NCBI GenBank assembly: GCA_963842845.1
Contig: CAWJHZ010000005.1
Span: forward strand, 1,308 to 65,307
Origin: an uncultured Chloroflexia bacterium
GTDB lineage: Bacteria > Chloroflexota > Dehalococcoidia > DSTF01 > JALHUB01
DNA: 64,000 bases
Direction: 5' to 3'
This document shows, piece after piece, positions 2,071-38,368 of this stretch. The position numbers and the translations under genes were made by a program. Position 1 is the first letter of the stretch. Each line of letters starts with the position of its first letter. Under the pieces are notes generated by a model that ran no database searches, was not told the DNA's origin, and was given only the letters and a program-made list of their open reading frames with translations.

Positions 2071-2116
2071 GCGAGGGCAACCGGGGGAGGAGCTTCGCGC
2101 TCCTCCCCCGCTCGTC

Positions 2117-3503: not shown

Positions 3504-3726
<223 letters not shown>

Positions 3727-8360: not shown

Positions 8361-9350
8361 TTATGAAAAATTTGTTATTGTGATGTTTGCTGTTGCTGTG
8401 TTTGCGGTGGTATTCCCGTAGTTAATCAAGGCGTAGAGATATTGGTATGTTGTGGTGGTGCATACGATACTAAGGTGTGATACAAGAACTGTCCGTGCAG
8501 AGTCGCTATAGATATCCAGGGTGCAGGTGGTTCCTACTCTTTTTATAGTGAGGTAATACATTGTTCCTGTTGCTAGAGCAGGTGATACTGCTGATGTTCC
8601 CGCAGAAATGTCTCTCAGTTCAAGTGTATTCGTATTTATGGGAGACCAGCAAACAAATATTCCTGTTGAGGCATTTATCGCAAGCTGTATCGTGGTCTGT
8701 CCGTTAGTCAACCCGACTCCTGTTCTTAACCCTGCTCCTGAGTAGCTATTTAATTCCATGTCAACATTAAAGGTGAAATTACTGAAATGACCTACGCCAA
8801 AATCTTTTCGCACATAGGATGTGCTTGCTCTCATCATGCCTGTGCAGACAATTTGATTTGCGGTAAGCGTGAAAGAGCCGGGTGTTACATTATATGCTGT
8901 ATAGGTTGTGAAATCCTGATAGGTTGTCACATTGATTGTTACTGATACGCTGTCATCAATAATGTTGATTTGTGATAGGAAATTTGCTTGTAATGTAACA
9001 GCGGATGCTGGCATGGTGAATGATAGTGTTGCGTTTGTGTTTGTGTACGTCCCTGTCCAACCTGTGAATGTGTAACCTGTGTTTACGGTAGCGGTTACAG
9101 TGATAGCGGTTCCAGAAGCATAATTCCCATTAGCGGTTCCAGAGATAACGCCTCCTGCTATCGGGCTTTCTGTCGCTGTGAACTGGTAAGTAGCGGGGGG
9201 TGTAGAAAGATATTCATATGCCCCGATATCGTATGCTGTCCCTTGTGGTCTTATGTTCCCATCGTAATCAACGGTAACAATAGATTCTGCCATTCCAGCG
9301 TTTATTGCAGGGGACGTGCTTTGTAAATGAAAATCAGGTGTTGTCTGTAC
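8361..9350 (-). CDS. C-terminal part of a beta-helix adhesin: disaggregatase-like motif plus Listeria-Bacteroides-type GYxFxGW repeat domains
   Basis: PDFHLQSTSPAINAG...DYDGNIRPQGTAYDIGAYEY; TGYTFTGWTG. In sequence terms it is the continuation of ORF 9334-10545 after a frameshift. Confidence 0.55.
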   Translation of the reverse strand, partial: VQTTPDFHLQSTSPAINAGMAESIVTVDYDGNIRPQGTAYDIGAYEYLSTPPATYQFTATESPIAGGVISGTANGNYASGTAITVTATVNTGYTFTGWTGTYTNTNATLSFTMPASAVTLQANFLSQINIIDDSVSVTINVTTYQDFTTYTAYNVTPGSFTLTANQIVCTGMMRASTSYVRKDFGVGHFSNFTFNVDMELNSYSGAGLRTGVGLTNGQTTIQLAINASTGIFVCWSPINTNTLELRDISAGTSAVSPALATGTMYYLTIKRVGTTCTLDIYSDSARTVLVSHLSIVCTTTTYQYLYALINYGNTTANTATANITITNFS

Positions 9351-10545
9351 TGGTAAATAACGGGTTTTTAAGTATAGGATTTGTACCCCATCCAGAGCCA
9401 CTACTCCAACTATTTGTTGGGCTACTGGCACTGAAATTCCAGTAAAGATTGTTGCTAAGTGTGATAACAGAGGAGGGATATGAATAATTATTTATGGCAA
9501 GAACAGTCGCTCCTTGGGTAGTGAAGATATTGTTCTCGATGATAACATTCCCTGTGATTTCAGTGGTAGATAATCTGTTTTCCCACAGGGCAGGATATCC
9601 TATGGTTCTCACCGTGTTATTGAAGATGTAGATATCATGCATGGTTGAATTAGCAGTACCAAGACAAACAAGGCTGATACCATATGAAGATGTATCAATG
9701 ATATTGTTATAGATGTTGATGTTGTAGAGTGTTCCAGTGTTCTCTGACCCGAATGCCATTGAATTATCATCACCGGTTCCCCCTGAGATGTAGTTGTTAT
9801 AGATGTCAATGTCATGTTCATTTCCTCCTTGTGGGTCAAGATAGATTCCTACGTTATTCCATGCTTTTGATGTTGGATTGTTTATATAAATCGTATTATG
9901 ATGGAGAGACCCGGTGTAACAACCTCCTTTTACATCTATCCCTTCCCGTCCATAATATGAGAGACTGTTATCATGGATGTTGAAATTGTTGATGCTTGAA
10001 AGAGAGATTGCTTCTTGTCCTACTTGCTGGCCACCATTTGCTTGTAGATGCACACGATAGACTGTGTTATTATCAAACTCGACAGAGCTTATCGCATAAA
10101 ACTTTATCCCTGAACATTGACATTCATGGATGTAACAATGGTCGATACGGATATGACTATTTTCTGGGTTGCTCGGGTCAGATGAACCAGTATCAGTACC
10201 AATCCAGATTCCATCTAACAGAGAATTTGTTATCTCTAATCCCGTGATTCTGAGATAATGACAACCTGTGAGAATGAAGACCCCTTGACCCCAGCTGTTA
10301 CTTGTGACCCCTGTTCCGTCTACGATGACGGCAGAAGTGTTAGATGGATTCGGCTGCAATGTTATCCATGCGCTGCTCGTACCAGTTTTAGAGATAGTTA
10401 CTTGTTCATTATATATCCCTTGACTGATGTTGATGGTGTCTCCTGCTGAAACCTTACTTAACGCATATTGAATCGCCAGCCACGGGGCACTAGACGACCC
10501 TGAATTTGAGTTACTGCCTGATTTAGAAACATAATAATTCGTCAT
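9334..10545 (-). CDS. right-handed parallel beta-helix (PbH1/pectate-lyase fold) surface protein, N-terminal part; frameshift near 9340-9370
   Basis: Repeated NNTIY.N/IHDN coils such as NIHDNSLSYYG and NIYNNIIDTSSYGI. It ends NPLFTSTDNT, exactly where the conserved ...NPLF-DFHLQ... motif continues in the other frame. A T5 homopolymer lies at 9365-9369. Confidence 0.6.
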   Translation of the reverse strand: MTNYYVSKSGSNSNSGSSSAPWLAIQYALSKVSAGDTINISQGIYNEQVTISKTGTSSAWITLQPNPSNTSAVIVDGTGVTSNSWGQGVFILTGCHYLRITGLEITNSLLDGIWIGTDTGSSDPSNPENSHIRIDHCYIHECQCSGIKFYAISSVEFDNNTVYRVHLQANGGQQVGQEAISLSSINNFNIHDNSLSYYGREGIDVKGGCYTGSLHHNTIYINNPTSKAWNNVGIYLDPQGGNEHDIDIYNNYISGGTGDDNSMAFGSENTGTLYNINIYNNIIDTSSYGISLVCLGTANSTMHDIYIFNNTVRTIGYPALWENRLSTTEITGNVIIENNIFTTQGATVLAINNYSYPSSVITLSNNLYWNFSASSPTNSWSSGSGWGTNPILKNPLFTSTDNT

Positions 10546-10584: not shown

Positions 10585-11337
10585 TTATTTCAGATAGAGT
10601 CCTTTATATCTCCCTGATTTCCCTCTTTTTATTGATAAACCATCATTATGGCGTGTTGACCACATTGGTTGCTCAGGGGGGATGTAAGTATCATTTATTT
10701 CAACGCAATCATACCATACTGTATACGAACTCCCTGTTTTTAAATCACCGAAATATATACCAACTAAAGGAGAATTAAGACCTCTTGTACCTGTCGTAAA
10801 ACCTGATACGCTTAATTCTAATCTCCCATTAATATAGAGTTTCGCCCATGAGGTGCTAGTTGTTTTATCTGCATACATGCCAAAGCAGAAACAGTACATC
10901 TTCATGAGTGCCACGGGTACCGTTCCTATTAGATTTACTGAGGTTGTCCCGTTATAATATTTTATGCACCAATATCCTGTTCCAGCAGAATTATATATGC
11001 CACATAGCCCAGGAGTACTTCCTGTAACTGTATCATAAAATGTCAGTATCCTTACCATATTACTCGCATCAGTAAGACTATCTGCCATCACATAGGCACG
11101 CATCCAACATGGATTACCACATGTTGGTCCTTGCAAAAACGCTTTCCCGTTGTTACCACTGTTTCCTGACGCTATAGTTGCAGCAGCACAGTATTTCCCA
11201 TGATGAGGATGTAATGTTGAATAGGTAAACGTGTTACCCGTGCCAGTTATTTGTGGATTAGGAAAGGCATTCCATTTTATCCAAGCTAATGTAGGGTCAT
11301 CCTCTGGTTCAAAACCATCAATGATATATCTAGTCAT
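10585..11337 (-). CDS. hypothetical secreted protein, possibly concanavalin-A/LamG-like jelly roll
   Basis: 250 aa, beta-rich, rich in Gly/Thr/Asn/Cys and aromatic residues. The fold assignment is a guess. Confidence 0.4.
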   Translation of the reverse strand: MTRYIIDGFEPEDDPTLAWIKWNAFPNPQITGTGNTFTYSTLHPHHGKYCAAATIASGNSGNNGKAFLQGPTCGNPCWMRAYVMADSLTDASNMVRILTFYDTVTGSTPGLCGIYNSAGTGYWCIKYYNGTTSVNLIGTVPVALMKMYCFCFGMYADKTTSTSWAKLYINGRLELSVSGFTTGTRGLNSPLVGIYFGDLKTGSSYTVWYDCVEINDTYIPPEQPMWSTRHNDGLSIKRGKSGRYKGLYLK

Positions 11338-11338
11338 C

Positions 11339-14300
11339 TTATGGGGCCGTCCCTATATAGTATAATAAATCACCGCTAATCACAGCACATGCGTGGACAT
11401 ACCCAATCTGACTAATATCAAGGTTGATTGCCTCGCCTGGGTCAAGAGGGAAACCAGCACCAGAGAACGGCATATGGTTTGCAGTATACCCGCCGATATA
11501 TAAAGTACCACTATTAGTCACAGCGGCTTTCACAAGGAGACTAAGTATTGCTCCTGAGTTCAATATAACCCCACCAGAGAAACAGCCAACGACTTTCGGG
11601 TTAGCGATACCACTGTATGTTGCGGCGATATTCCCTGAGCCGAAAGCGTTTGTCAAGATGGTAGTTGGCGTAACAACTAAAACCGAACCGCTAATCACTG
11701 TCACAGAACCCGAGACAAACACACCGCCGCTAATGATAGTCACCGCACCAGACATCACATGAACCTCACCAGACTGAACACCAACAAGACCCGAGACAGC
11801 AACCGTCCCAGAAACCTGGACAGCACCAGAAACCCATGCACCAACAGAGCCGCTCGTCACCCAAACCTTACCAGAAGTCGGGTCCATAAACTGAATAAGA
11901 CCGCTAATCACTGTCACAGAACCCGAGACAAACACACCGCCGCTAATGATAGTCACCGCACCAGACATCACATGAACCTCACCAGACTGAACACCAACAA
12001 GACCCGAGACAGCAACCGTACCAGAAACCTGGACAGCACCAGAAACCCATGCACCAACAGAGCCGCTCGTCACCCAAACCTTACCAGAAGTCGGGTCCAT
12101 AAACTGAATAAGACCGCTAATCACTGTCACAGAACCCGAGACAAACACACCGCCGCTAATGATAGTCACCGCACCAGACATCACATGAACCTCACCAGAC
12201 TGAACACCAACAAGACCCGAGACAGCAACCGTCCCAGAAACCTGGACAGCACCAGAAACCCATGCACCAACAGAGCCGCTCGTCACCCAAACCTTACCAG
12301 AAGTCGGGTCCATAAACTGAATAAGACCGCTAATCACTGTCACAGAACCCGAGACAAACACACCGCCGCTAATGATAGTCACCGCACCGCTCATTATATG
12401 GACTTCACCAGACTCCAAAGCCACCAGACCAGACTGCACACCCACCAACCCTGAGACAGCAACCGTACCAGACACCCATGCACCAACAACAGAAACCGCA
12501 CCACCAGACTGAATAGTCACAAACAGACCAGAGGCGAGAGTAACACCAACACCAGAAGCAGCATACGTACCAGAAGCAGCCGCCGCAACAACAAAGATAC
12601 CAGATGCCATATAGAAACCAGAATTTAGACTAATAATATTCCCGCTGATGCTTACAACATTACCACTCACACTCATTACACCAGACATTATGTGAATCTC
12701 ACCAGACTGAACACCCACAAGACCAGAGGTTATAATCGGAAGAACAGCACCACCCGATTGAATAGTCACAAACAGACCGCTCCCGATAGTCGTTGTGATA
12801 ACACCACTGATAACAGTAACAGAACCCGAGACAAACACACCGCCGCTGATGATGGTCACAGCACCAGACATCACATGAACCTCACCAGACTCCAAAGCCA
12901 CCAGACCAGACTGAACACCCACAAGACCCGAGATAGCGACCGTACCAGACACCTGAAGAGCACCAGAAACCTGAGCACCAACCACACCGCTAATCACCGT
13001 CACAGACCCGCTAATGAAGACACCACCGCTAATCACCGTCACCGCACCAGACATCACATGCACTTCACCAGATAAAATGCTGATAAAACCAGAGGTCTGA
13101 AGAACCTGAATCTGACCACTAATCACCTGAACCGCACCCGAGACAAACACACCACCAGAAATGATAGTGACTGCTCCAGACATAATATGGACTTCACCCG
13201 AAGTAACACCAATCAAACCAGAGAGAACAGCGACATTACCGCTCCCGATAGAAACATTACCAGAAACAATCACACCACCGGAAACAGTAACACCACCAGA
13301 AGTAATATGAACATCCACAAAACCGCTCATGATATGGACTTCACCAGACTGAACACCCACAAGACCCGAGACAGCAACCGTACCAGACACCCATGCACCA
13401 ACAGAGCCGCTAGTCACCCAAACCTTACCAGAAGTCGGGTCAGTAACCTGAATAAGACCACTGATAACTGTAACAGAACCCGAGACAAACACACCGCCGC
13501 TGATGATGGTCACAGCACCAGACATCACATGAACCTCACCAGACTCCAAAGCCACCAGACCAGACTGAACACCCACAAGACCCGAGATAGCGACCGTACC
13601 AGACACCTGAAGAGCACCAGAAACCTGAGCACCAACCACACCGCTAATCACCGTCACAGACCCGCTAATGAAGACACCACCGCTAATCACCGTCACCGCA
13701 CCAGACATCACATGCACTTCACCAGATAAAATGCTGATAAAACCAGAGGTCTGAAGAACCTGAATCTGACCACTAATCACCTGAACCGCACCCGAGACAA
13801 ACACACCACCAGAAATGATAGTGACTGCTCCAGACATAATATGGACTTCACCCGAAGTAACACCAATCAAACCAGAGAGAACAGCGACATTACCGCTCCC
13901 GATAGAAACATTACCAGAAACAATCACACCACCGGAAACAGTAACACCACCAGAAGTAATATGAACATCCACAAAACCGCTCATGATATGGACTTCACCA
14001 GACTGAACACCCACAAGACCCGAGACAGCAACCGTACCAGACACCCATGCACCAACAGAGCCGCTAGTCACCCAAACCTTACCAGAAGTCGGGTCAGTAA
14101 CCTGAATAAGACCACTGATAACTGTAACAGAACCCGAGACAAACACACCGCCGCTGATGATGGTCACAGCACCAGACATCACATGAACCTCACCAGACTC
14201 CAAAGCCACCAGACCAGACTGAACACCCACAAGACCCGAGATAGCGACCGTACCAGACACCTGAAGAGCACCAGAAACCTGAGCACCAACCACACCGCTA

Positions 14301-17143
14301 ATCACCGTCACAGACCCGCTAATGAAGACACCACCGCTAATCACCGTCACCGCACCAGACATCACATGCACTTCACCAGATAAAATGCTGATAAAACCAG
14401 AGGTCTGAAGAACCTGAATCTGACCACTAATCACCTGAACCGCACCCGAGACAAACACACCACCAGAAATGATAGTGACTGCTCCAGACATAATATGGAC
14501 TTCACCCGAAGTAACACCAATCAAACCAGAGAGAACAGCGACATTACCGCTCCCGATAGAAACATTACCAGAAACAATCACACCACCGGAAACAGTAACA
14601 CCACCAGAAGTAATATGAACATCCACAAAACCGCTCATGATATGGACTTCACCAGACTGAACACCCACAAGACCCGAGACAGCAACCGTACCAGACACCT
14701 GAACTGAACCAGAAACCTGCGTCATACCATACAAACCAGAGGCAAGATACACACCAGATTGAACAGTAACACCCACACCAGAATTAATGATGACACCTAC
14801 ACCAGAGGCACTATAAGTTCCTGATGCCGCGCCAGCAACAACAAAAATACCAGAAGCGAGATAAATACCAGATTGTACAACCACACCAGCGCCAGATTGA
14901 ATGACAACACCGACACCTGAGGCAAAATACTGCCCAGATGCAGAATATATCCCTGAAGCGGCGGCAGTAACAACAAATACGCCAGATGCAAGATAAATAC
15001 CTGATTCTAAAATAACACCAATACCCGATTGAACAACTACACCCACACCAGAAGCAGCATATGTTCCAGAGGCCGCAGCAGTCACCATATAAATACCAGA
15101 TGCAAAATATGAGCCGGATGCAATAGAAACAGTCTCACCAGAAACTTTAGCGATAAGCTGACCTGACATCACATAGATGTTACCGCTCAAAACCTGAACA
15201 TTACCTGAGACACCAACAATACCCGAAACCACAACAGAACCAGAAACAGTCACACCACCACTCGTAATATGAACATCCACGAAACCACTCATCACATGAA
15301 TTTCACCAGATTGGATGCCGACAAAACCAGAAGTCTGCAAAACCTGAATCTGACCACTAATCACCTGAACCGCACCCGAGACAAACACACCACCAGAAAT
15401 GATAGTCACAGCACCACTCATGATATGGACTTCACCCGAAGTAACACCAATCAAACCAGAGAGAACAGCGACATTACCGCTCCCGATAGAAACATTACCA
15501 GAAACAATCACACCACCGGAAACAGTAACACCACCAGAAGTAATATGAACATCCACAAAACCAGACATTATATGGATTTCACCAGATTGAAGAGCAACAA
15601 ATCCAGACGTCTGCAAAACCTGAATCTGACCGCTAATCACCGTCACAGACCCAGAGACAAACACACCACCAGAAATAATAGTCACATTACCGCTCATAAT
15701 ATGGATTTCACCAGAAAAAATGCTGACAAAACCAGAAGTCTGAAGAACCTGAATCTGACCACTAATCACCGTCACAGAACCGCTAATGAACACACCACCA
15801 GAAATGATAGTCACATTACCGCTCATCACATGAACCTCACCAGACTGAACACCCACAAGACCCGAGATAGCGACAGTACCAGACACCTGAACAGCACCAG
15901 AAACCCATGCACCAATACTGCCGCTCGTCACCCAAACCTTCCCAGAAGTCGCATCAACAACCCACGTACCAGACTGATAATACGAACCAGACAACAAGAA
16001 AATCGAGCCAGACACACCAACATTACCAGAGACAATCACAGAACCCGAGACAACAGGGACATTCACATACCCTGACATCACATAGATGTTACCGCTCAAA
16101 ACCTGAACATTACCAGAAACACCAACAATACCAGAAACCACAACCGCACCAGAAACCCAAGCACCAACAGAACCACTCATCACATGAACCTCACCAGAAG
16201 CTACACCGATAAGACCAGATTGAATAGCAACAAAACCAGAAGTCTGCAAAACCTGAATCTGACCACTAATCACCGTCACAGAACCCGAGACAAACACACC
16301 ACCAGAAATGATAGTGATTGCTCCAGACATAATATGGACTTCACCAGACTCCAAAGCAACCAAACCAGACTGAATACCAACCAACCCTGAGATAGCGACC
16401 GTACCAGACACCTGAAGAGCACCAGAAACCTGCGTCATACCATACAAACCAGAGGCAAGATACACACCAGATTGAACAGTAACACCCACACCAGAATTAA
16501 TGATGACACCTACACCAGAGGCAGAATATGTTCCTGATGCCGCGCCAGCAACAACAAAAATACCAGAAGCAATATACACACCAGATTCAACAAAAACATG
16601 TTGCCCTGAAATAAGTACGCCAGCACCAGATTGAATAACGACACCAACACCAGAAGCGAAAAACTGACCGGATGCACCATAAGTACCAGAGCCACCACCC
16701 GTGACAACATATAGACCAGAAGCGATATACACACCTGATTGTACGACGACACCTACACCAGAGGCAGAATATGTTCCTGATGCCGCGCCAGCAACAACAA
16801 AGATACCAGATGCAATATACACACCAGATTCAACAAAAAGATGCTGACCAGAAATCTCAACAATGTTCCCTGAAACCGTGACAGGCTGACCGCTGATATT
16901 CGCAGTTGCGGTAAACGTGCCAGCAACAAAAATGCCGGAGGCAATATACACACCTGATTCAACAAAAACATGGTCTCCCGATACAGTAACAGGTTGACCA
17001 GAGATATCTGTTTTTACATCAAAAACACCTTGAACAAATACTCCGCTTTCAACAAAAACGTGGTCTCCTGATACAGTAACAGGTTGACCAGAGACACTTA
17101 CTGTAGTTGTTGTAATCGGAGTCGGTATAATATCCATTCGCAT
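11339..17143 (-). CDS. giant (1934-aa) Ser-Gly/Val repeat beta-protein; putative fibre or surface layer protein
   Basis: Uninterrupted 5.8-kb ORF. TTTAAATA box and AGGTGAAGT RBS upstream. The protein is a long run of xSGxVxVx units with 71-aa and 218-aa higher-order repeats. Confidence 0.8.
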   Translation of the reverse strand: MRMDIIPTPITTTTVSVSGQPVTVSGDHVFVESGVFVQGVFDVKTDISGQPVTVSGDHVFVESGVYIASGIFVAGTFTATANISGQPVTVSGNIVEISGQHLFVESGVYIASGIFVVAGAASGTYSASGVGVVVQSGVYIASGLYVVTGGGSGTYGASGQFFASGVGVVIQSGAGVLISGQHVFVESGVYIASGIFVVAGAASGTYSASGVGVIINSGVGVTVQSGVYLASGLYGMTQVSGALQVSGTVAISGLVGIQSGLVALESGEVHIMSGAITIISGGVFVSGSVTVISGQIQVLQTSGFVAIQSGLIGVASGEVHVMSGSVGAWVSGAVVVSGIVGVSGNVQVLSGNIYVMSGYVNVPVVSGSVIVSGNVGVSGSIFLLSGSYYQSGTWVVDATSGKVWVTSGSIGAWVSGAVQVSGTVAISGLVGVQSGEVHVMSGNVTIISGGVFISGSVTVISGQIQVLQTSGFVSIFSGEIHIMSGNVTIISGGVFVSGSVTVISGQIQVLQTSGFVALQSGEIHIMSGFVDVHITSGGVTVSGGVIVSGNVSIGSGNVAVLSGLIGVTSGEVHIMSGAVTIISGGVFVSGAVQVISGQIQVLQTSGFVGIQSGEIHVMSGFVDVHITSGGVTVSGSVVVSGIVGVSGNVQVLSGNIYVMSGQLIAKVSGETVSIASGSYFASGIYMVTAAASGTYAASGVGVVVQSGIGVILESGIYLASGVFVVTAAASGIYSASGQYFASGVGVVIQSGAGVVVQSGIYLASGIFVVAGAASGTYSASGVGVIINSGVGVTVQSGVYLASGLYGMTQVSGSVQVSGTVAVSGLVGVQSGEVHIMSGFVDVHITSGGVTVSGGVIVSGNVSIGSGNVAVLSGLIGVTSGEVHIMSGAVTIISGGVFVSGAVQVISGQIQVLQTSGFISILSGEVHVMSGAVTVISGGVFISGSVTVISGVVGAQVSGALQVSGTVAISGLVGVQSGLVALESGEVHVMSGAVTIISGGVFVSGSVTVISGLIQVTDPTSGKVWVTSGSVGAWVSGTVAVSGLVGVQSGEVHIMSGFVDVHITSGGVTVSGGVIVSGNVSIGSGNVAVLSGLIGVTSGEVHIMSGAVTIISGGVFVSGAVQVISGQIQVLQTSGFISILSGEVHVMSGAVTVISGGVFISGSVTVISGVVGAQVSGALQVSGTVAISGLVGVQSGLVALESGEVHVMSGAVTIISGGVFVSGSVTVISGLIQVTDPTSGKVWVTSGSVGAWVSGTVAVSGLVGVQSGEVHIMSGFVDVHITSGGVTVSGGVIVSGNVSIGSGNVAVLSGLIGVTSGEVHIMSGAVTIISGGVFVSGAVQVISGQIQVLQTSGFISILSGEVHVMSGAVTVISGGVFISGSVTVISGVVGAQVSGALQVSGTVAISGLVGVQSGLVALESGEVHVMSGAVTIISGGVFVSGSVTVISGVITTTIGSGLFVTIQSGGAVLPIITSGLVGVQSGEIHIMSGVMSVSGNVVSISGNIISLNSGFYMASGIFVVAAAASGTYAASGVGVTLASGLFVTIQSGGAVSVVGAWVSGTVAVSGLVGVQSGLVALESGEVHIMSGAVTIISGGVFVSGSVTVISGLIQFMDPTSGKVWVTSGSVGAWVSGAVQVSGTVAVSGLVGVQSGEVHVMSGAVTIISGGVFVSGSVTVISGLIQFMDPTSGKVWVTSGSVGAWVSGAVQVSGTVAVSGLVGVQSGEVHVMSGAVTIISGGVFVSGSVTVISGLIQFMDPTSGKVWVTSGSVGAWVSGAVQVSGTVAVSGLVGVQSGEVHVMSGAVTIISGGVFVSGSVTVISGSVLVVTPTTILTNAFGSGNIAATYSGIANPKVVGCFSGGVILNSGAILSLLVKAAVTNSGTLYIGGYTANHMPFSGAGFPLDPGEAINLDISQIGYVHACAVISGDLLYYIGTAP
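11700..12420. repeat. 213-bp tandem repeat, about 3.3 near-identical copies, coding
   Basis: Identical reverse-strand pseudo-ORF peptides recur every 213 bp (11759, 11972, 12185). They encode the 71-aa repeat of the giant protein. Confidence 0.75.
12830..14710. repeat. 654-bp tandem repeat, about 2.9 essentially identical copies, coding
   Basis: 13076-13729 matches 13730-14383 base for base. Partial copies flank on both sides. 654 bp is 3 x 218 codons. Confidence 0.8.
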
Positions 17144-17235
17144 ACTTCACCTAAATAAACATCATTAATTGAGTATTTAAAAATTACATAGAAAAGTTTT
17201 TTATATTCTCATGCTGATGCTTTATGAGGTTAAGT

Positions 17236-17400: not shown

Positions 17401-17405
17401 ATACT

Positions 17406-32285: not shown

Positions 32286-34007
32286 CTATTTCTCTGCTTC
32301 TACAATCACAGAAAGCGACGGGAATGTATTTATTGTCTGCGTCTGAATCACTTTTGACCTTGATGAAAACGGTGATGCTATTTGTATGTTCTTGAATCCT
32401 GTTTCCTCAAGTAATTTAATTAAAGCATCTTCATCATAGAGTGTTTTATGGTTTGCATATAGTAATTCATGGAGTGCTTCAGCATCATCATGAGCTCGTT
32501 CCACCCCTACATTAACATAGCGGTATTCTTTTATTTCTCCATTAAGATATTTCCGTGTTATTTTAGCGGTATCTGGTACGCTTATCCTGATGATTCCTCC
32601 TGGCTTCAAAACACGGCAGCATTCTGTTAGAAACTGTTTACCTTCTACTCTAGTAAAATGTTCAAGGAGATGTGAATGGAAAATGATGTCTACAATGTTA
32701 TCCTCGCAGGGTATCCCTTTTGATATGTCTATTTGTCTGAAACGGTATGCCTGTGTATCCGCAAATTGTCTCAAATCAATGATATCTATGTTCACCCATC
32801 CATAATAAAACATGTTCTTGTATGACCCGATGTTTAATTTATAGAGGTCGTCAATATATTTTATTACGCCGTTTTCTCCCCATAGTCCCGGGGCCATTGA
32901 TGTTGGTGGCTGCTGATACGGGTTTTCATATTCTACCGTCCGTGGATACTCTATTTGAATAGGATACTCAGGGGCGATTGATTTGAATTTATCTAACCAA
33001 AACTGCTTGTTTTTCATCGTCACATGCGTTATATCAATATCTTTATCTGCCTCAACATACCCATGGTCAGTGAAATGAATCGCATGCAGTCCTCTTTTTG
33101 ACACGCGTACCATTTCCTGTATCACGGAATCAATTTTATCCTCTGGTATGTGTTCAAGGAGGTTACTGCTAAAACAAAGGTCTATTGCTTTGTTTGCGAA
33201 TCCCCATGGTGTAATTGTTATATCGCAAACCCTCATGCTGTCTGTTGCTCTGGTGTGCCAACAATGATGACTAATGTCAAGTCCTGTTACTTTTATCCCC
33301 TCGTTCTCAAGCACACGGATGACATATCCACGACCGCAACCGACATCAAGGACGCTCTCTGGTTTTAATTTCGCTATAAACCGTGCTGTGGAATAATGGG
33401 TGCAGAAATCACGATATTCTCTATATCCGATGGTTCCGTCCTCGAAATACTCACGTTCAAAAACTTCTCCTTGCATTTTAAACACCTCGATAATCATGTC
33501 TGTCTTGGAGACAGGATGTGGTAACACCGTTACTTTAAAGCCTGCTTCTCCAAATAATTTTTTTGCGTATTCAGGGCTGAAACCAGCTTTATGGCAACCA
33601 CCATAATTCGGGAACTCTTGGCTACCAAAAATACGCTCAACTGTCCCTTTATTTACTCCTTCTTCAACCACACTTCTGCATTGTTCAAGGAGATTCGCTG
33701 TAATAATCACGGCTCTCCCATTTGGTTTCAGGATACGATGAATTTCTTTAATGAAATCTATTGTTTTTCTCCATTCAACATGCTCTATAGTATATTGACA
33801 GAAAACGCCATCATACTCCCCTGTTTTCAACGGCCAGGGGAAACATGAAAGGTCATGGATGATGTCAACAGTCGGCTCTTTGATAATGTCGACATTCGGG
33901 CGTATGATAGGGTTTTTCCCCCCCCCAAGCTCTATTGTTTTTCCTGAAAACGGGAGGATGTAACTATATTGGTTTTTAGTAAGCGGAACGTATGGCATTA
34001 CAAACAT
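32286..34007 (-). CDS. methyltransferase with three tandem class I methyltransferase domains
   Basis: Three independent motif I/post-I sets: IELGGGKNP...ILKPNGRAVI; VLDVGCGRGYVIRVL...VSKRGLHAI; YYGWVNIDII...VLKPGGIIRISVPD. Confidence 0.7.
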   Translation of the reverse strand: MFVMPYVPLTKNQYSYILPFSGKTIELGGGKNPIIRPNVDIIKEPTVDIIHDLSCFPWPLKTGEYDGVFCQYTIEHVEWRKTIDFIKEIHRILKPNGRAVIITANLLEQCRSVVEEGVNKGTVERIFGSQEFPNYGGCHKAGFSPEYAKKLFGEAGFKVTVLPHPVSKTDMIIEVFKMQGEVFEREYFEDGTIGYREYRDFCTHYSTARFIAKLKPESVLDVGCGRGYVIRVLENEGIKVTGLDISHHCWHTRATDSMRVCDITITPWGFANKAIDLCFSSNLLEHIPEDKIDSVIQEMVRVSKRGLHAIHFTDHGYVEADKDIDITHVTMKNKQFWLDKFKSIAPEYPIQIEYPRTVEYENPYQQPPTSMAPGLWGENGVIKYIDDLYKLNIGSYKNMFYYGWVNIDIIDLRQFADTQAYRFRQIDISKGIPCEDNIVDIIFHSHLLEHFTRVEGKQFLTECCRVLKPGGIIRISVPDTAKITRKYLNGEIKEYRYVNVGVERAHDDAEALHELLYANHKTLYDEDALIKLLEETGFKNIQIASPFSSRSKVIQTQTINTFPSLSVIVEAEK

Positions 34008-35082
34008 CCTTGTAGCGACTTTGTATTTTCTCCCAGGTATATTTTTCTGCGGTTTTCCGTGCGTTTTTCCCCATTCTATCAATTTCTTCAGGGTTGTCCT
34101 TGAAGTATTGCAGTTTCGTTAGTATGCTCTCAGCATCGCGTCTGGGAACGACAAAACCATCTTTGCCGTCTGTGATGAGTTCTGACATCCCTGCTCCTTC
34201 TGACACGATTACAGGTCGGTTGAATGCCATCGCTTCAAGCGGTGTGATTCCAAAACCTTCAATGACGGAGGGTTGAACATAGACGCTTATTTTACTATAG
34301 AACTCAGGTAAAGATGTTTCACCGAGGACATGAATTGTCTCGTTTGATTCTAAATTAGCTGCTTCTCGTCCACCAATTATTAATTGCATGTTGTTTTTTT
34401 GTATTGCGGTTAATAGATATATTATTCCTTTGTCTTTCCCGAGGCTACCGAAATACCCTGGCATGAACTCCGCTGGTGGTTCAGGTATCTCAGATGGAAG
34501 ATAGCAACCATGTGGTATCACTATTGGTTTTTCTGTAAGTTTTGCCTCATTCATGATATATTCCGCTGATGAATGAGAATGGACTATTACTTTATCCGCA
34601 AGTCGTAGTTGTTTCAAATATAACTCAAGAAGATATTGATTTGTAAGGTGGGGATAGGGATATTGATGCGGAATATATTTAAGATGCTCTTCCCTGCTGA
34701 TTTTGATATTATGCGGGGCGAGGTCACAGATGACTTTGCAGAATGATTCTTTTTTAAGGGTTCTTACTGTCTCACCGAACGGGCATCCGTAGGTTATCGC
34801 TAGGTCAAAATCCTTATATCGTACCATTGAATTTGCGAAGTAATCATAGAAAAAAGGGTCATCATATCCAAACTGCCGAGGGTCAAGACATTGAGCATAA
34901 ATGGGAATTACTATATCCGCTATTGCAGATAAATACCTTCCATCTTGAAAATGCTGATTGGAGAGAATAAGCTCTACTGTTGATATGGATTTTAATACTT
35001 CCAGCAGATTATAGCTGACGATGCCGCCTCCGCTGTATTGGTTCACACCAGAATTAGTGATGAGTGCTGATTTCATTTCCAC
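33976..35082 (-). CDS. GT4-family (GT-B) glycosyltransferase
   Basis: C-terminal EGFGITPLEAMAFNRPVIVSEGAGMSELI signature. Confidence 0.85.
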   Translation of the reverse strand: MEMKSALITNSGVNQYSGGGIVSYNLLEVLKSISTVELILSNQHFQDGRYLSAIADIVIPIYAQCLDPRQFGYDDPFFYDYFANSMVRYKDFDLAITYGCPFGETVRTLKKESFCKVICDLAPHNIKISREEHLKYIPHQYPYPHLTNQYLLELYLKQLRLADKVIVHSHSSAEYIMNEAKLTEKPIVIPHGCYLPSEIPEPPAEFMPGYFGSLGKDKGIIYLLTAIQKNNMQLIIGGREAANLESNETIHVLGETSLPEFYSKISVYVQPSVIEGFGITPLEAMAFNRPVIVSEGAGMSELITDGKDGFVVPRRDAESILTKLQYFKDNPEEIDRMGKNARKTAEKYTWEKIQSRYKDVCNAIRSAY

Positions 35083-35200
35083 ACCACGGACATAATCCTT
35101 TTTTTTTATACCCGTAATAATTCAATATTGTCGCTAATACCATGCCACCGAATAAACCAAGGAGAAAACCGATAATTATGTCTTTTGTGTCTTTTTTCAT

Positions 35201-35536
35201 TTATCCCCCAACATAGGGTGTTTTTTCTTTCTCACCCTCTATTTTCATGGCTTCAGCGACATGAATCGTATACGTGTTTTTTAATTTCTGTGACCTCATT
35301 AATAGGTTAAGAATAAAATTAACTGATACCATATCATAGACAAGATTTTTCATCGTTGGGTGTCCATTGAAATTCTCTTTACATATCTTTTCAGTTTCGT
35401 CAGCAAGATGACGCATTACTTCTTGAAGAAGTTTATTCATCTTTTCAACATCAAAATCAAGGGTTTTTAAAATACTCTCATCCTGGAGTTGTTTCAGTTT
35501 TTTTTTATCTATCCCTATGTTGATTTCTTTTATCAT
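35201..35536 (-). CDS. hypothetical protein, 111 aa
   Basis: ORF only. Confidence 0.4.
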   Translation of the reverse strand: MIKEINIGIDKKKLKQLQDESILKTLDFDVEKMNKLLQEVMRHLADETEKICKENFNGHPTMKNLVYDMVSVNFILNLLMRSQKLKNTYTIHVAEAMKIEGEKEKTPYVGG

Positions 35537-36426
35537 TTATCCTCCTCGTTGAAATCTTCAATCTTTTTTGCTATTTCTTCATCTGATAATTTTCTCATTT
35601 CATCATCCCACAAAATAAGGGTTTCGTATCCTGCTTTTGAAAGAATTATTTTTCTAATTTTTTCAGTTCTTCTTGGAGGGGGAGAGAATGCTCCATCTTT
35701 ATCATGGAATGCTCTTCCAAAAACCTCTATTATTCTATTATTGGAATTATTTATAAAATCAGGATTTAAACCATTTATCCAAATACTTTTATTTCCAACA
35801 TATTTAAAAGGTAGTTTGTATTTCTTTAGAATGTTCTCGATTCTAATTTCTGGCTTTGTTTTATTGTCTCCATTTACATATGTCCATGGTTTTCGGTCTG
35901 TACAATTTTTTGATGCTTGCTTTCCAATACAGTCTTTTGTCTTGTGTAATCCTAATGAATTTGCTTTTACTTGTATTGAAGCATATCGATGATTTGGTAT
36001 CAACTCTATCAATTCTAATTTAGATGATGCGGCATAATTTTCAATTAGATTTTTCATCTCTTCAGCCATCCATGTTCTTGGATTTTTACTCCATCTAGAA
36101 AAACGTTCTATCTCACGTTGGTTAAATTTTTTTGATTTCTCAAATCCAACTCTTTTCGCTTTATGCTCAATACTTCGCATAGTTCTTCCAGGAAATAGAG
36201 ATATAAGTTCGCTTAGATATTTATCTGGATAATTGTCTCTTAAAATTTTAATTTCTTTTTTTGACCATTTATTCTTTTTTTTAAGACCATACTTATTTAT
36301 TTTTTGTTGTATGCTAGATATCGTTCTACTGGACAGTAGTCTCTGGAGTTCTTGATAGGAAGATGCTGTAGAAAAATATTTTTTTAATGTTTCTACTTCT
36401 TGTTCTTCCCAATGTTTATTTCCCAT
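35533..36426 (-). CDS. homing-endonuclease-like protein: N-terminal Myb/SANT-like helix-turn-helix repeats plus a C-terminal Vsr/PD-(D/E)XK-like nuclease
   Basis: C-terminus GLNPDFINNSNNRIIEVFGRAFHD...TLILWDDE is paralogous to 25784-26698. The N-terminus has two W...W...RT..S...K.K repeats. Confidence 0.6.
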   Translation of the reverse strand: MGNKHWEEQEVETLKKYFSTASSYQELQRLLSSRTISSIQQKINKYGLKKKNKWSKKEIKILRDNYPDKYLSELISLFPGRTMRSIEHKAKRVGFEKSKKFNQREIERFSRWSKNPRTWMAEEMKNLIENYAASSKLELIELIPNHRYASIQVKANSLGLHKTKDCIGKQASKNCTDRKPWTYVNGDNKTKPEIRIENILKKYKLPFKYVGNKSIWINGLNPDFINNSNNRIIEVFGRAFHDKDGAFSPPPRRTEKIRKIILSKAGYETLILWDDEMRKLSDEEIAKKIEDFNEEDK

Positions 36427-36461
36427 TAATTAAACAATGGGTTTGACGTATTTAAACATTT

Positions 36462-37574
36462 CTACCAAGTATTACCCGATAAAATTTGCTTATATAGGGA
36501 TAGATATTCCCTAGCCATCCTTTCATATGAAAACCACTCTGCGTGTCGTCTACAATCTTCTGGTCGTATCTCATCAATCCTTTTGATATAATACATAAAT
36601 TCTTCGTCACTGTTAGCGAAAAAACCATTGAAACCATGTACCGTTGTCTCGTTCCATCCACCAGATGGGCATACCACGGTTGGTGTTCCGCAGGCGTTTG
36701 CTTCTGGGACAATCAAGCCGAAAGGCTCTATGAAATGATTCGCTTGACCTGGGAGACCGGTATAGGTTTCTACGCTTGGCATCACGACCGCTTTCGCATT
36801 CTGGTACATCTCGAGTTTCTTCTCAAAAGGAACTGCTTTGCCGAGTTCACCAACAACTGATACTTGACTGCTTTTTGAGAGTTTCTCATTGATGAATTTG
36901 AGGTAATCAGGGTCTTGTCCGAAGCTGCCGCCAAGGATAAATCCTTTCATCTTGAGTTTATCGCAAATATCTATGAAACGATGAGCTCCTTTTGGAGGGA
37001 AAATACGGCTCACCCATAGGAGGTAATCTTGTTTCTCTTTTTTAAAAGGGTATTTTGTTAAATCAATGCCGTTCTGAACGCCCCTCCATATGCATCCCAT
37101 CGGGGGAGAAAACGTCCCATCTGGTTTTATCCATCGAAACTCTGTGAGATTCTTCGCATGGTTCTGTGAAACACCACAGAGATTTGCATTAAAAGCGGGT
37201 TTTTCTCTGAAGCCAGGGTCAGGGCCATGATGTGTTTTTATGATACGTCCGTTGCGCTCATTGTAGAGAGAATAAGGAAAATAATTCCATGAATGGTCAT
37301 GGAGAATATCTGCTTCAAGTAACGCTTTTTTCGCCTGAGGATTATCCATATACATCTTCCAAGCGTTGATTTCATCGACTGCCCCTGGTTGCCCTGCCGC
37401 ATAGATAAACCCATGCTGTGGCTGATACGAGCCCATAGGCGCAAAATGATGTACCTCGTGTCCATGGTCATCAAAATATTTCGCCAATAATCCAACTATC
37501 AATTCAAGACCAGCATACCCTTTCAAATCAGGATGTGATGCAAAGATTTGTGTGCTATATAGTGCTATTTTCAT
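36462..37574 (-). CDS. GT4-family glycosyltransferase
   Basis: AAGGAAGG RBS; MKIALYSTQ...; C-terminal FIEPFGLIVPEANACGTPTVV. Its start overlaps the endonuclease stop in an ATGA arrangement. Confidence 0.8.
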   Translation of the reverse strand: MKIALYSTQIFASHPDLKGYAGLELIVGLLAKYFDDHGHEVHHFAPMGSYQPQHGFIYAAGQPGAVDEINAWKMYMDNPQAKKALLEADILHDHSWNYFPYSLYNERNGRIIKTHHGPDPGFREKPAFNANLCGVSQNHAKNLTEFRWIKPDGTFSPPMGCIWRGVQNGIDLTKYPFKKEKQDYLLWVSRIFPPKGAHRFIDICDKLKMKGFILGGSFGQDPDYLKFINEKLSKSSQVSVVGELGKAVPFEKKLEMYQNAKAVVMPSVETYTGLPGQANHFIEPFGLIVPEANACGTPTVVCPSGGWNETTVHGFNGFFANSDEEFMYYIKRIDEIRPEDCRRHAEWFSYERMAREYLSLYKQILSGNTW

Positions 37575-38368
37575 ATTGCAACCTTCCTTAATATACATGG
37601 TTTTATGTTTTTAATCAATTCTTTCACTTCCCTATCTCTATACATCCCAATTTTATAGATGTCGCTTTTATCTTTTTCCCGTTTCTTTCGTTTTGCTTTT
37701 CTGATGGTTGGATGAAACCCTAATTCCTCAAGAAATTGCTTTATCATTGATAATGTTTTTTCATTTGAATTAATTATTTCTATAGCATAGCATCCGTTAT
37801 TATTTAGCAGAGAACCTTCAGATTCGTACATGCCTTGTATAAAAGCGAATTTAAATTTATCTTCTATTGCATTTTTTTGTATCCATTCTAACGGTGTTTT
37901 TTTATACCATTCTACAAATATTTTGCAATATGCTCTTGTTTTAAAGGCATCATTCCACTTTTCATTTTTCTTTTTCTCCGTAAAAATCCACCCACTGTGA
38001 GAGATTCCTATAGATTTTAATGAAGAAATGAATGCCTCTACAAAACATTTATCAGTGGAAGTAAGTTCTATTTTATAATGGTTACAACCATTTTTAGTAG
38101 GTTGTATGGATACACTACCATCTCCTTTTAATATTCCAAGTAAATAAAAAAGATTTTCTGATTCTTTTGGTTTCCATCCATCTACTGTATTTTCCCAATA
38201 TCTTAAATCTAATTTTGATAATGAAGTCTGGTCTGCTTGTTTGCGAATAAAAAAACCTGATTCGGAGAATCTTCGTTTCAAAGTATGTCTACTTATGTGT
38301 TCTTTTTTTGATATTTCAGATAAACTTAATCCAGATTCGTATTGGTTATATACAGATGCTATCTTCAT
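37571..38368 (-). CDS. free-standing LAGLIDADG homing endonuclease with an N-terminal helix-turn-helix
   Basis: Two motifs, LLGILKGDGSV and FAFIQGMYESEGSL. ATGA overlaps with the glycosyltransferase genes on both sides. Confidence 0.8.
   Translation of the reverse strand: MKIASVYNQYESGLSLSEISKKEHISRHTLKRRFSESGFFIRKQADQTSLSKLDLRYWENTVDGWKPKESENLFYLLGILKGDGSVSIQPTKNGCNHYKIELTSTDKCFVEAFISSLKSIGISHSGWIFTEKKKNEKWNDAFKTRAYCKIFVEWYKKTPLEWIQKNAIEDKFKFAFIQGMYESEGSLLNNNGCYAIEIINSNEKTLSMIKQFLEELGFHPTIRKAKRKKREKDKSDIYKIGMYRDREVKELIKNIKPCILRKVAI

What the first reader, a model, noticed from the sequence alone, without database searches (positions are those of the whole stretch)
11339..17143. 1934-aa giant protein made of SG-punctuated Val/Ile beta-units, encoded by perfect 654-bp x3 and 213-bp x3 tandem DNA repeats
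The protein is an almost uninterrupted series of 6-9 residue units (SGxVxVx) with no obvious signal or anchor. Higher-order 71-aa and 218-aa repeats are identical at the nucleotide level. That implies recent expansion or contraction and a locus prone to length variation by slipped or recombinational events. Together with the adjacent lectin-fold, beta-helix/disaggregatase-like and GYxFxGW-repeat proteins (8.3-11.3 kb) it forms a surface-fibre or adhesin module. I do not recognise the SG-V unit as a described family.
Basis: partly seen in the sequence, partly recalled or inferred. Interest (0 to 1): 0.7.

Follow-up and report, generated by a model that had tools for sequence, protein, structure and literature searches.

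The report
Giant repeat fibre of archaeal virus
The 1,934-residue protein is real and is most likely a very long surface fibre of a tailed virus, probably of archaea; it belongs to an undescribed family defined by a small C-terminal jellyroll domain behind a variable-length shaft of 7-residue "SG" beta-units, and here the shaft has grown about five-fold by recent tandem duplication.

Summary
ORF 11339-17143(-) encodes 1,934 aa with 258 SG-punctuated units of mostly 6-7 residues. A 654-nt block is exactly repeated 2.88 times, and a 213-nt block 3.3 times with one synonymous SNP.

It is not an orphan. An exhaustive HMMER search found 233 relatives, all unannotated. They share an ~85-aa C-terminal domain that AlphaFold models confidently (pLDDT 91.7) as an eight-stranded jellyroll. 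The N-terminal part varies from almost nothing to long SG shafts, sometimes with carbohydrate-binding-like domains.

Relatives lie on tailed-virus contigs (terminase, portal, HK97-type capsid), several with archaeal MCM, Cdc6 or Hjc genes, and one on a Bathyarchaeota MAG contig. Family genes are repeatedly linked to a glycosyltransferase/methyltransferase cassette that the window also carries, next to a second, 141-aa paralogue.

A syntenic relative (L011) has a 513-aa, 52-unit orthologue in the same slot, so shaft length evolves by block duplication.

Best reading: a virion attachment or decoration fibre with a beta-solenoid-like shaft. The shaft fold, the oligomeric state and which end is anchored remain unresolved. 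The exact copy number needs long reads. It is an undescribed family of a known kind.

The parts
11339..17143 (-). Giant fibre gene: 1,934 aa, 258 SG units, no SG-free stretch of 40 aa or more
17147..17152 (-). Shine-Dalgarno AGGTGA, 3 nt upstream of the ATG
   Evidence: read directly from the sequence
16814..17143 (-). N-terminal module (about aa 1-110): repeated 'SGQPVTV SGDHVFVE SG..DVKTDI'. It is conserved in the 513-aa orthologue of L011, and 'SGQHVFVE' units recur across the family
12816..14699 (-). 654-nt (218 aa, 31 units) tandem array, 2.88 copies, 100% identical
11687..12388 (-). 213-nt (71 aa, 10 units) tandem array, about 3.3 copies, one synonymous SNP
11348..11605 (-). Family-defining C-terminal jellyroll domain (aa 1847-1932)
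10585..11337 (-). 250-aa gene starting 1 nt after the giant's stop codon, so probably co-transcribed. No detectable family; the lectin fold is unverified
8361..10545 (-). Right-handed beta-helix (tailspike-like), InlB B-repeat and a C-terminal beta-sandwich domain. Annotated as two ORFs (9334-10545 and 8361-9431) that look like one gene split by a +1 frameshift near 9335
   Evidence: Pfam PF13229, PF18998 and phrog_2234; the motif NPLF..DFHLQ..SPAINAG..DIGAYEY spans the two frames; the L011 orthologue is one 457-aa ORF; the C-terminal domain is 33% identical to the N-terminal domain of family member P0140
18163..18909 (+). Conserved partner gene (248 aa, no family). Homologues lie directly upstream of family genes in L011, L012 and L005-7
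39182..39607 (-). Second, short paralogue (141 aa) made essentially of the jellyroll domain
   Evidence: HMM E 4e-12
32286..39132 (-). Glycosyltransferase/methyltransferase cassette linked to family genes in several of the related viral loci: GT-like 38365-39132, GT4 36462-37598, GT4 33976-35082, MTase 32286-34082. Here it is interrupted by homing-endonuclease genes at 37571-38368 and 35533-36426

Best explanation
The gene encodes a structural surface fibre (host-attachment or decoration fibre) of a large tailed double-stranded DNA virus, most probably one infecting archaea.

The protein has three parts:
- a short conserved N-terminal module;
- a very long shaft of 258 short beta-strand units. 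In each unit the Ser-Gly makes the turn and the alternating Val/Ile residues at positions 4 and 6 make the core, so the units would stack as a beta-solenoid or beta-helix-like rod roughly 40-125 nm long, depending on how many units form one rung;
- an ~85-residue C-terminal jellyroll domain, the constant family-defining element. It most likely serves as the assembly, oligomerisation or attachment module.

Shaft length is an evolvable parameter. Multi-unit blocks of 10 and 31 units duplicate in tandem by unequal recombination or slippage between near-identical DNA. That produced a shaft about five times longer than in the orthologue of a related virus.

Shown: the ORF, the unit pattern, the repeats, the family, the jellyroll fold (as a model), the viral context, and the length difference between orthologues.

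Inferred: virion location, the beta-solenoid fold of the shaft, the oligomeric state, the archaeal host, and the attachment function.
For: Observation:
- ORF, unit pattern and repeats.

Family:
- 233 proteins at E<=1e-3 and 84 at E<=1e-10, nearly all aligned through their extreme C-termini and carrying the same unit types.
- Best viral model hit is a Nitrosopumilus spindle-shaped virus protein at 29% identity, E 2e-6. NSV1 has short fibres at one pole (PMC8491892).

Viral context:
- L003 and L004 carry terminase, portal, prohead protease and an HK97-type capsid gene, with a family gene three genes after the capsid gene.
- L005-7 carry MCM and Cdc6, and L008 carries Hjc.
- L002 is a Bathyarchaeota MAG contig syntenic with window 32-39.6 kb.
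- The window itself is rich in homing endonucleases, has an intein, and has a tailspike-like beta-helix gene after the giant gene and its 250-aa neighbour.

Shaft as beta-solenoid:
- The AF2 model is all short strands, but at low confidence.
- SG regions of homologues exceed Pfam gathering scores for LbR_Ice_bind (a 7-residue half-turn beta-roll), Bactofilin and FapA.

Length evolution:
- The syntenic orthologue in L011 has 513 aa and 52 units, with the same N- and C-terminal modules. L012 has 911 aa.
- P0145 has a 189-aa exact internal repeat.
- Internal copies range from 62% to 100% identity.

Modular architecture:
- Other members have a variable N-terminal globular domain, then the SG shaft, then the constant jellyroll.
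Against: - No virion proteomics or imaging exists, so the structural role rests on context and analogy.
- No capsid, portal or terminase gene was recognised inside the window itself.
- The shaft model is unreliable (pLDDT 39).
- The giant's own segments reach only E 0.9-4.4 for LbR_Ice_bind.
- No 2- or 3-unit superperiod was found.
- The archaeal host is inferred from relatives, not from the window.
- Perfect 654-nt repeats are exactly what assemblers get wrong, so the count of 258 units may be off.
- In the one pair of near-identical relatives available (L001 and L008) no unit-level length change was seen.
Confidence: 0.6

Rival explanations
1. Classical tail-fibre polarity. The N-terminal module docks to the tail or baseplate. 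The SG units form an intertwined trimeric triple beta-helix, one unit per rung, giving a fibre of about 124 nm. The C-terminal jellyroll is the distal trimerising, receptor-binding knob, as in the adenovirus, PRD1 P5 or PM2 P1 fibres.
For: - The N-terminal module is conserved between the giant and its L011 orthologue.
- The domain is shared with a morphologically unrelated spindle virus, which fits an exchangeable host-recognition module better than a capsid anchor.
- There is no 2- or 3-unit superperiod, as expected if all units are equivalent in a symmetric trimer.
- Between near-identical L001 and L008, identity falls from 98.9% to 80-88% exactly in the C-terminal domain. Such mosaicism is typical of receptor-binding tips.
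- A tailspike-like gene lies nearby.
Against: - Across the family the C-terminal domain is the constant part, while the N-terminal part is the variable one and carries the CBM-like or lectin-like domains.
- Minimal members of about 100 aa are the domain alone.
- In L003 and L004 the gene sits beside the capsid gene, not in a recognisable tail module.
- The trimeric state is untested.
Confidence: 0.3
2. Hoc-like polarity. The constant C-terminal jellyroll anchors the protein to the virion, possibly the capsid, and the SG shaft projects outward as a spacer. It displays either itself or, in other members, an N-terminal carbohydrate-binding domain. The protein would then be a head or surface decoration fibre for reversible adhesion.
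For: - The architecture is a constant C-domain with a variable N-terminal display.
- A family gene lies three genes downstream of the HK97-type capsid gene in two viruses whose capsid proteins are 57% identical.
- Each genome has 2-3 paralogues of different length.
- Precedent from general knowledge: T4 Hoc binds the capsid through its C-terminal domain. HFTV1, an archaeal tailed virus, carries capsid turrets with sugar-binding domains (PMC12494034).
Against: - A homologue exists in a spindle-shaped virus with an unrelated capsid.
- In the window the giant gene lies near a tailspike-like gene, not a capsid gene.
- No capsid-binding evidence exists.
Confidence: 0.3
3. The gene is real, but its extreme length is partly an assembly artefact. 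The exact 654-nt and 213-nt arrays have a different true copy number, or vary within the population, and the 1,934-aa figure is one arbitrary resolution.
For: - 1,884 nt and about 700 nt of (near-)perfect tandem repeat exceed short-read length.
- The exact protein is not on record elsewhere.
- The window itself seems to join two unrelated sequences at about 3.4-3.7 kb, so the assembly or concatenation needs care.
Against: - Collapsing both arrays to one copy each still leaves about 1,361 aa, the longest member seen.
- The graded series of older copies (62-92% identity) shows genuine serial duplication.
- Other family members from independent assemblies also have long internal repeats.
Confidence: 0.25
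4. Ena-like polymer. The jellyroll domains stack or interlock into a pilus-like appendage, as Bacillus endospore appendage subunits (DUF3992) do, and the short paralogues are the major subunits.
For: - There is a faint profile match to DUF3992 covering the whole domain (E 0.28).
- Minimal members are 100-120 aa, like Ena subunits, and occur as tandem paralogues.
Against: - E 0.28 is not significant and identity is 11-13%.
- Cupins and viral jellyrolls score almost as well.
- The alignment shows no conserved Cys-containing N-terminal connector.
- The idea does not explain a 1,850-residue extension.
Confidence: 0.05
5. A cellular adhesin or S-layer-associated protein of a prokaryote, not viral.
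For: - One relative lies on a contig binned as a Bathyarchaeota MAG.
- The neighbours are adhesin-like (beta-helix, B-repeat), and sugar-biosynthesis genes resemble a cell-envelope island.
Against: - There is no signal peptide or anchor.
- Relatives sit beside terminase, portal, protease and capsid genes.
- The window is dense in small ORFans, homing endonucleases and an intein.
- The MAG contig is only 10 kb and is syntenic with viral contigs.
Confidence: 0.05

Closest known systems
Viral attachment fibres with a repetitive beta shaft and a C-terminal jellyroll or beta-sandwich knob (adenovirus fibre, PRD1 P5, PM2 spike P1, reovirus sigma1)
   Different: No sequence relationship was found. 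The unit is 6-7 residues (SGxVxVx) rather than the 15-residue triple beta-spiral repeat (from general knowledge). Here the C-terminal domain is the most conserved part of the family instead of the most variable. The trimeric state is untested.
Triple-stranded beta-helix needles and fibres of phages (T4 gp5 C-terminal VxGxxxxx repeats, T4 gp34/gp37, endosialidase stalks)
   Same: Short Gly-punctuated units with alternating hydrophobic residues that could each form one rung. The absence of a 2- or 3-unit superperiod fits equivalent units in a symmetric trimer.
   Different: The period is 7 rather than 8. There are 258 units against about 11-25 (from general knowledge). No sequence match was found, and intertwining cannot be tested here.
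Single-chain beta-solenoids with Gly turns: Lolium ice-binding protein beta-roll (Pfam LbR_Ice_bind, 7-residue half-turns), bactofilin, FapA
   Same: SG regions of homologues P0008 and P0112 pass the curated Pfam thresholds of these families. The dominant 7-residue period matches the LbR_Ice_bind half-turn.
   Different: The giant's own segments score only 8-10 bits against a threshold of 30. The Asn ladder of the ice-binding repeat is absent (Asn is 1.6% of residues). The biology is entirely different, and the similarity may be pattern convergence.
Bacillus endospore appendage subunits (Ena, DUF3992)
   Different: Sequence similarity is not significant (E 0.28). The cysteine-bearing N-terminal connector is not conserved, and the context is viral rather than spore-related.
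Capsid-borne adhesion modules: T4 Hoc and the turrets of the archaeal tailed virus HFTV1
   Same: The possible logic is the same: a constant virion-binding module with outward-projecting, carbohydrate-binding or spacer parts for reversible adhesion to the host surface (PMC12494034).

Membership tests
   aa 1847-1932 match positions 12-97 of a 40-sequence HMM. phmmer gave 233 hits.
   The window carries the cassette beside the short paralogue and the w18163-like gene beside the giant.
Pfam LbR_Ice_bind (PF21300, grass antifreeze beta-roll) | Score at or above the gathering threshold (30 bits) | tested here: not met
   The giant's segments score 10.1 and 7.9 bits (E 0.93 and 4.4). Homologue P0008 scores 32.4 bits.
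Pfam LbR_Ice_bind (PF21300, grass antifreeze beta-roll) | 7-residue half-turn repeat with an inward Asn/Val ladder (xxNxVxG, from general knowledge) | tested here: inconclusive
   The 7-residue period dominates (114 of 257 spacings) with V/I at positions 4 and 6, but Asn is only 1.6% of residues.
Bactofilin (PF04519) / FapA beta-solenoid (PF03961) | Profile match at or above the gathering threshold | tested here: not met
   Neither family was listed for the giant or its segments, even at E<=10. Homologue P0112 passes both.
Hexapeptide left-handed beta-helix (Hexapep) | Profile match and a strict 6-residue period | tested here: not met
   Hexapep_2 scores E 1.5 and 9 bits against a threshold of 27. 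Unit length is mixed, 6 to 9 residues.
   The period is 6-7, not 3, and no such Pfam family was listed.
Trimeric viral fibre (triple beta-helix or beta-spiral shaft with a C-terminal knob) | Compact beta-sandwich or jellyroll domain at the C-terminus | tested here: met
Trimeric viral fibre (triple beta-helix or beta-spiral shaft with a C-terminal knob) | Homotrimeric, intertwined shaft | not testable with these tools
   Only monomer prediction was available, and the monomer shaft model is poor (pLDDT 39).
Ena / DUF3992 endospore appendage subunits | Significant profile similarity to DUF3992 | tested here: not met
   The A2 profile scores E 0.28 against 8pdz_R. Pfam lists no DUF3992 hit for the giant or the short paralogue.
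Ena / DUF3992 endospore appendage subunits | Jellyroll fold of about 100 residues | tested here: met
Cupin metalloenzymes | Conserved His/Glu metal-binding motifs | tested here: not met
   The invariant and near-invariant columns of A2 are G, S, L, K, N and P only, with no conserved His.
Phage tailspike / right-handed beta-helix (the neighbouring gene, not the giant) | Beta_helix Pfam match and a PHROG tail-spike match | tested here: met
   PF13229 E 3e-11 (43.5 bits against a threshold of 25.9); phrog_2234 E 8e-8

The most novel reading that the evidence does not exclude
The jellyroll/SG proteins and the adjacent virus-encoded glycosyltransferase/methyltransferase cassette form one functional unit, a previously unrecognised virion appendage system of archaeal viruses. 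The unit is shared across morphologically unrelated lineages (tailed viruses and Nitrosopumilus spindle viruses). In it the jellyroll either binds, or is decorated with, a virus-made methylated glycan, and a solenoid shaft of freely evolvable length (from 0 to about 260 rungs) sets the reach of the appendage. The giant protein would be the extreme of a length-tuning mechanism that works through recombination-prone DNA repeats.
Probability: 0.15. Interest if true: 0.75.

Novelty: new variant of a known kind. Interest (0 to 1): 0.55.

Why it matters
Very little is known about how uncultivated archaeal viruses recognise their hosts. This work delimits an unannotated family that appears to be a recurring virion-module gene of such viruses: 233 cluster representatives, absent from Pfam, PHROGs and the PDB by sequence. 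The family gives a searchable marker (the C-terminal jellyroll) and a confident domain model. It also shows a repeated genomic link to a glycosylation cassette and a clear natural example of fibre-length evolution by block duplication (52 units versus 258 in orthologous slots). If the shaft is a regular beta-solenoid of up to about 260 rungs, it would be among the longest such rods known and a useful model for repeat-driven length control. The jellyroll shared with Nitrosopumilus spindle viruses would add a link to a virus whose proteins, the polymerase apart, were reported as unrelated to those of other viruses.

Tried and rejected
- **Word-indexed protein searches.** The whole protein gave one weak hit. 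The bare C-terminal domain gave none. The family appeared only with the exhaustive HMMER search.
- **Deposited phage genomes.** No DNA or protein match. NSV1 is not in the collection.
- **IMG/VR with the single proteins.** Nothing. A2 was too diverse for the locus finder; the tighter A3 worked.
- **Shaft structure.** Single-sequence AF2 of aa 1655-1934 gave pLDDT 39 and was unusable. A pseudo-MSA of internal paralogues (A1) was misaligned by MAFFT and was not used.
- **Solved structures by sequence.** Nothing significant for the shaft plus domain, the domain profile or the 250-aa neighbour. Foldseek against PDB gave nothing below E 1e-3. AFDB50 was unavailable.
- **Superperiod test.** No 2- or 3-unit periodicity in unit length or side-chain class, so single-chain roll, solenoid and trimer cannot be told apart.
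- **Glycosylation.** N-x-S/T sequons are not enriched: 7 against 6.4 expected in the giant, and 254 against 244 across the family. N-glycosylation of the shaft is therefore unsupported.
- **Copy-number variation between strains.** L001 and L008 are 98.9% identical. They show only 1-nt insertions, probably sequencing errors, and no unit-level change.
- **Literature.** Papers on Bathyarchaeia, ammonia-oxidising archaea, alkane-oxidiser viruses, HFTV1 and NSV do not describe this family. The sample accessions were not found in any paper.
- **RNA families.** Rfam found only the tRNA.
- **Rejected readings.** Collagen or PPE-like repeat, hexapeptide LbH membership, cupin enzyme, cellular adhesin.
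Full report
**1. Observation**

The window holds an ATG-initiated ORF at 11339..17143 on the minus strand encoding 1,934 aa. An AGGTGA Shine-Dalgarno lies 3 nt upstream of the ATG. The next gene starts 1 nt after the stop codon.

The protein contains 258 'SG' dipeptides. Their spacing is 7 residues (114 times), 6 (74), 8 (31) or 9 (17). In 7-residue units position 4 is V/I in 110 of 114 and position 6 is V/I/L in 109 of 114. Positions 3, 5 and 7 are mixed. Composition is V 20%, G 18%, S 16%, I 9%, with one Arg and two Cys.

At the DNA level a 654-nt block (31 units) is exactly identical over 12816-14699, which is 1,884 nt or 2.88 copies. A 213-nt block (10 units) is repeated about 3.3 times over 11687-12388, with a single synonymous difference. 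Other copies of the same blocks in the gene are 92, 80, 75, 68 and 62% identical, so duplication has been serial.

**2. Not an orphan**

Curated libraries give nothing significant for the protein: Pfam, PHROGs, PDB sequences and deposited phage genomes. The word-indexed search of 5.8 billion clusters gave one weak hit, P0001. P0001 shares the unit types and a non-repetitive C-terminal stretch.

An exhaustive phmmer search with the last 351 residues found 233 proteins at E<=1e-3 and 84 at E<=1e-10. Almost all matched through their extreme C-termini.

Their common element is an ~85-aa domain, consensus ..SGG..L.SG.V.SVTVKAL..NSGDIYVGG...PYSG.GF.LEPGEAINLDVDN...V.A.VSGD.VTY.GV. The N-terminal part ranges from almost nothing (101-117-aa proteins) to hundreds of residues of SG units, including units identical to ours such as SGQHVFVE, SGEVHIM and SGAVQVSGIVGVSG.

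Some members insert or prepend globular domains. P0144 and P0133 have weak CBM_4_9 matches. P0140 carries an N-terminal domain 33% identical to the C-terminal domain of the window's own neighbouring gene. A few proteins (P0039, P0043, P0044, P0047) combine the same shaft with a different C-terminus.

The giant is the longest member seen, and the only long one without an SG-free stretch of 40 aa or more.

**3. The C-terminal domain**

With a 40-sequence alignment (A2), AlphaFold2 gives pLDDT 91.7 and pTM 0.83 for an eight-stranded all-beta domain.

Foldseek against the PDB finds nothing below E 1e-3, and the profile-against-PDB search is not significant (DUF3992 E 0.28). No His is conserved, so it is not a cupin enzyme.

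Among predicted viral structures the best match is a 136-aa protein of Nitrosopumilus spindle-shaped virus (29% identity, E 2e-6, TM 0.75). Many small uncharacterised Caudovirales proteins follow.

**4. The shaft**

A single-sequence AF2 model of the last 280 residues is all short strands but unreliable (pLDDT 39). No multimer tool was available.

There is indirect evidence for a beta-solenoid. The SG region of homologue P0008 passes Pfam's threshold for LbR_Ice_bind, the Lolium ice-binding beta-roll made of 7-residue half-turns. P0112 passes Bactofilin and FapA.

The giant's own segments reach only 8-10 bits for LbR_Ice_bind, although they span nearly the whole model. I therefore treat this as 'works like', not membership.

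Unit-level autocorrelation shows no 2- or 3-unit superperiod. This is compatible with equivalent units in a symmetric oligomer but is not decisive.

Taking about 4.8 Å per rung (a textbook value), 258 units would give about 124 nm with one unit per rung (triple beta-helix), 62 nm with two (beta-roll) or 41 nm with three (triangular solenoid).

**5. Context: a tailed virus, probably archaeal**

From about 4 kb onward the window is a dense array of small, mostly unannotatable genes. It also holds:
- several HNH and LAGLIDADG homing endonucleases and an intein;
- one tRNA;
- many methyltransferases and glycosyltransferases;
- sugar-nucleotide enzymes.

After the giant gene come a 250-aa gene of unknown family, then a right-handed beta-helix protein (PF13229; PHROG 'tail spike') with an InlB B-repeat.

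Related loci found with the domain alignment:
- **L003, L004 (IMG/VR).** Terminase, portal, prohead protease and an HK97-type major head protein, with a family gene three genes after the capsid gene.
- **L005-7 (54-72-kb contigs).** MCM and Cdc6/Orc1.
- **L008 (99-kb contig).** Hjc.
- **L002.** A contig of a Candidatus Bathyarchaeota MAG.

The window holds a second, 141-aa paralogue at 39182-39607.

Next to family genes a cassette recurs in L002, L003, L005-7, L009/10, L012 and the window: a GT-like gene, GT4 and methyltransferase, at up to 52% identity to the window's genes. In the window it is interrupted by homing endonucleases. A w18163-like gene is a further conserved neighbour.

**6. Length evolution**

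L011 is an 89-kb metagenome contig at 40.6% GC. It is syntenic with window 7.9-24.5 kb:
- DegT aminotransferase, 66% identity
- methyltransferase, 85%
- w18163 homologue, 42%
- beta-helix protein, 27%
- w7995 homologue, 83%

The slot orthologous to the giant gene holds a 513-aa protein. It has the same N-terminal module (SGQPVTI SGDHVFVE ..DVKTDI) and the same jellyroll, but 52 units instead of 258. L012 has a 911-aa member, and P0145 has a 189-aa exact internal repeat.

The shaft is thus the evolvable part, and the window's gene is an extreme expansion. Collapsing the two perfect arrays to one copy each would still leave about 1,361 aa.

The only pair of near-identical relatives, L001 and L008 (98.9% identity), shows no unit-level change. 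It shows only 1-nt insertions typical of long-read error. Identity drops to 80-88% in the C-terminal domain, with no similarity downstream.

**7. Interpretation**

The best-supported reading is a virion surface fibre for host attachment or decoration. Its shaft is a beta-solenoid or beta-helix-like stack of SG units. Its constant C-terminal jellyroll is the assembly or attachment module.

Two polarities remain open.
- **Classical fibre polarity (C-terminal knob distal).** This is favoured by the canonical fibre plan, the PM2 P1 match, the sharing of the domain with a spindle virus, and the mosaic C-terminus.
- **Hoc-like polarity (C-terminal anchor, N-terminus distal).** This is favoured by the constancy of the C-domain against variable, carbohydrate-binding-like N-terminal domains, by the minimal domain-only members, and by the position next to the capsid gene.

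The linkage to the glycosylation cassette is striking but unexplained. N-glycosylation sequons are not enriched.

**8. Novelty**

The kind of object is known: a viral fibre with a repetitive beta shaft and a jellyroll end, whose length varies by repeats. The family, its SG heptad unit, its distribution in probably archaeal viruses, its cassette linkage and the size of this member are not described in the libraries or papers I could search.

I rate it a new variant of a known kind, with moderate interest.

Noticed in passing
window 1-3700: The first ~3.4 kb are 65-79% GC and carry an MMPL-family ORF (2117-3433, minus strand). GC falls to 30-40% between about 3400 and 3700, and the rest of the window is viral-like. 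There are no N's. This looks like a junction of two unrelated sequences (concatenated contigs or a chimera) rather than a prophage boundary.
   Followed up: partly
window 9334-9431 (overlap of ORFs 9334-10545 and 8361-9431, minus strand): The canonical C-terminal motif of right-handed beta-helix proteins (..NPLF....DFHLQ..SPAINAG....DIGAYEY) is split between two reading frames. A +1 shift near 9335 would join them into one protein of about 740 aa. The L011 orthologue is one uninterrupted 457-aa ORF. The cause could be a sequencing error, a pseudogene or a programmed frameshift.
   Followed up: partly
window 39182-39607 (-) and 32286-39132 (-): A short 141-aa paralogue of the jellyroll family lies next to a GT-like/GT4/GT4/methyltransferase cassette that is conserved beside family genes in several related viral contigs. 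In the window the cassette is interrupted by a LAGLIDADG endonuclease gene (37571-38368) and an HNH/D5-like gene (35533-36426).
   Followed up: yes
window 51669-53474 (-): A 601-aa ORF consists mostly of an intein with a LAGLIDADG endonuclease (Pfam Intein_splicing, LAGLIDADG_3). The extein, about 150 aa, matches no family.
   Followed up: no
window 4563-5069 (+), 17397-18071 (+), 25784-26698 (-), 37571-38368 (-), 35533-36426 (-): The density of free-standing homing endonuclease genes (HNH, LAGLIDADG) is unusually high. One lies immediately upstream of the giant gene, in divergent orientation.
   Followed up: no
window 20467-21597 (-), 26847-28142 (-), 28973-29959 (+), plus methyltransferases at 19557-20249, 23583-24503 and 57923-58645: A virus-encoded sugar-nucleotide pathway is present: DegT-type aminotransferase, UDP-glucose dehydrogenase and an NDP-sugar epimerase, with many SAM methyltransferases. 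This suggests synthesis of a modified, possibly methylated, amino sugar. Several of these genes are 65-85% identical in L011.
   Followed up: partly
window 18163-18909 (+): A 248-aa protein with no family match has homologues directly adjacent to family genes in L011 (42% identity), L012 and L005-7. It is a conserved partner of unknown role, possibly a chaperone or assembly factor.
   Followed up: partly
window 7995-8273 (+): A 92-aa protein is 83% identical to an ORF in L011 and L013, far more conserved than its neighbours. Its C-terminal half (FEIFKDKKQKFRFRL.APNGEII..SEGY.SK) looks to me like a YegP/DUF1508-type domain. That is from memory and was not tested.
   Followed up: no
window 30095-30169 (-): A single tRNA-Asn (GTT) is the only RNA family detected in the window by ARAGORN and Rfam.
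   Followed up: yes
L001 2823-6650 versus L008 6620-10474: The same 1,275-aa family gene appears as three ORFs in L008 because of 1-nt insertions. Such insertions also occur outside the gene, so they are probably long-read indel errors. Identity falls from 98.9% to 80-88% within the C-terminal domain and vanishes downstream, marking a recombination (mosaic) boundary inside the 3' end of the gene.
   Followed up: yes
proteins P0039, P0043, P0044, P0047 (no window coordinates): These have the same SG-unit shaft but a different conserved C-terminus (..GLQ.N.GLWV......W..F[KR]SG[FY]). The shaft is therefore a module combined with at least two kinds of end domain.
   Followed up: no
giant protein shaft versus positions 15-52 of the C-domain HMM (window 11339-17143): Shaft units repeatedly give partial matches to the first strands of the jellyroll profile (SGG..L.SG.V.SVTVKA..NSG). 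The shaft units may have arisen by duplication of strand-turn elements of the domain itself, or the profile may simply share their composition.
   Followed up: no
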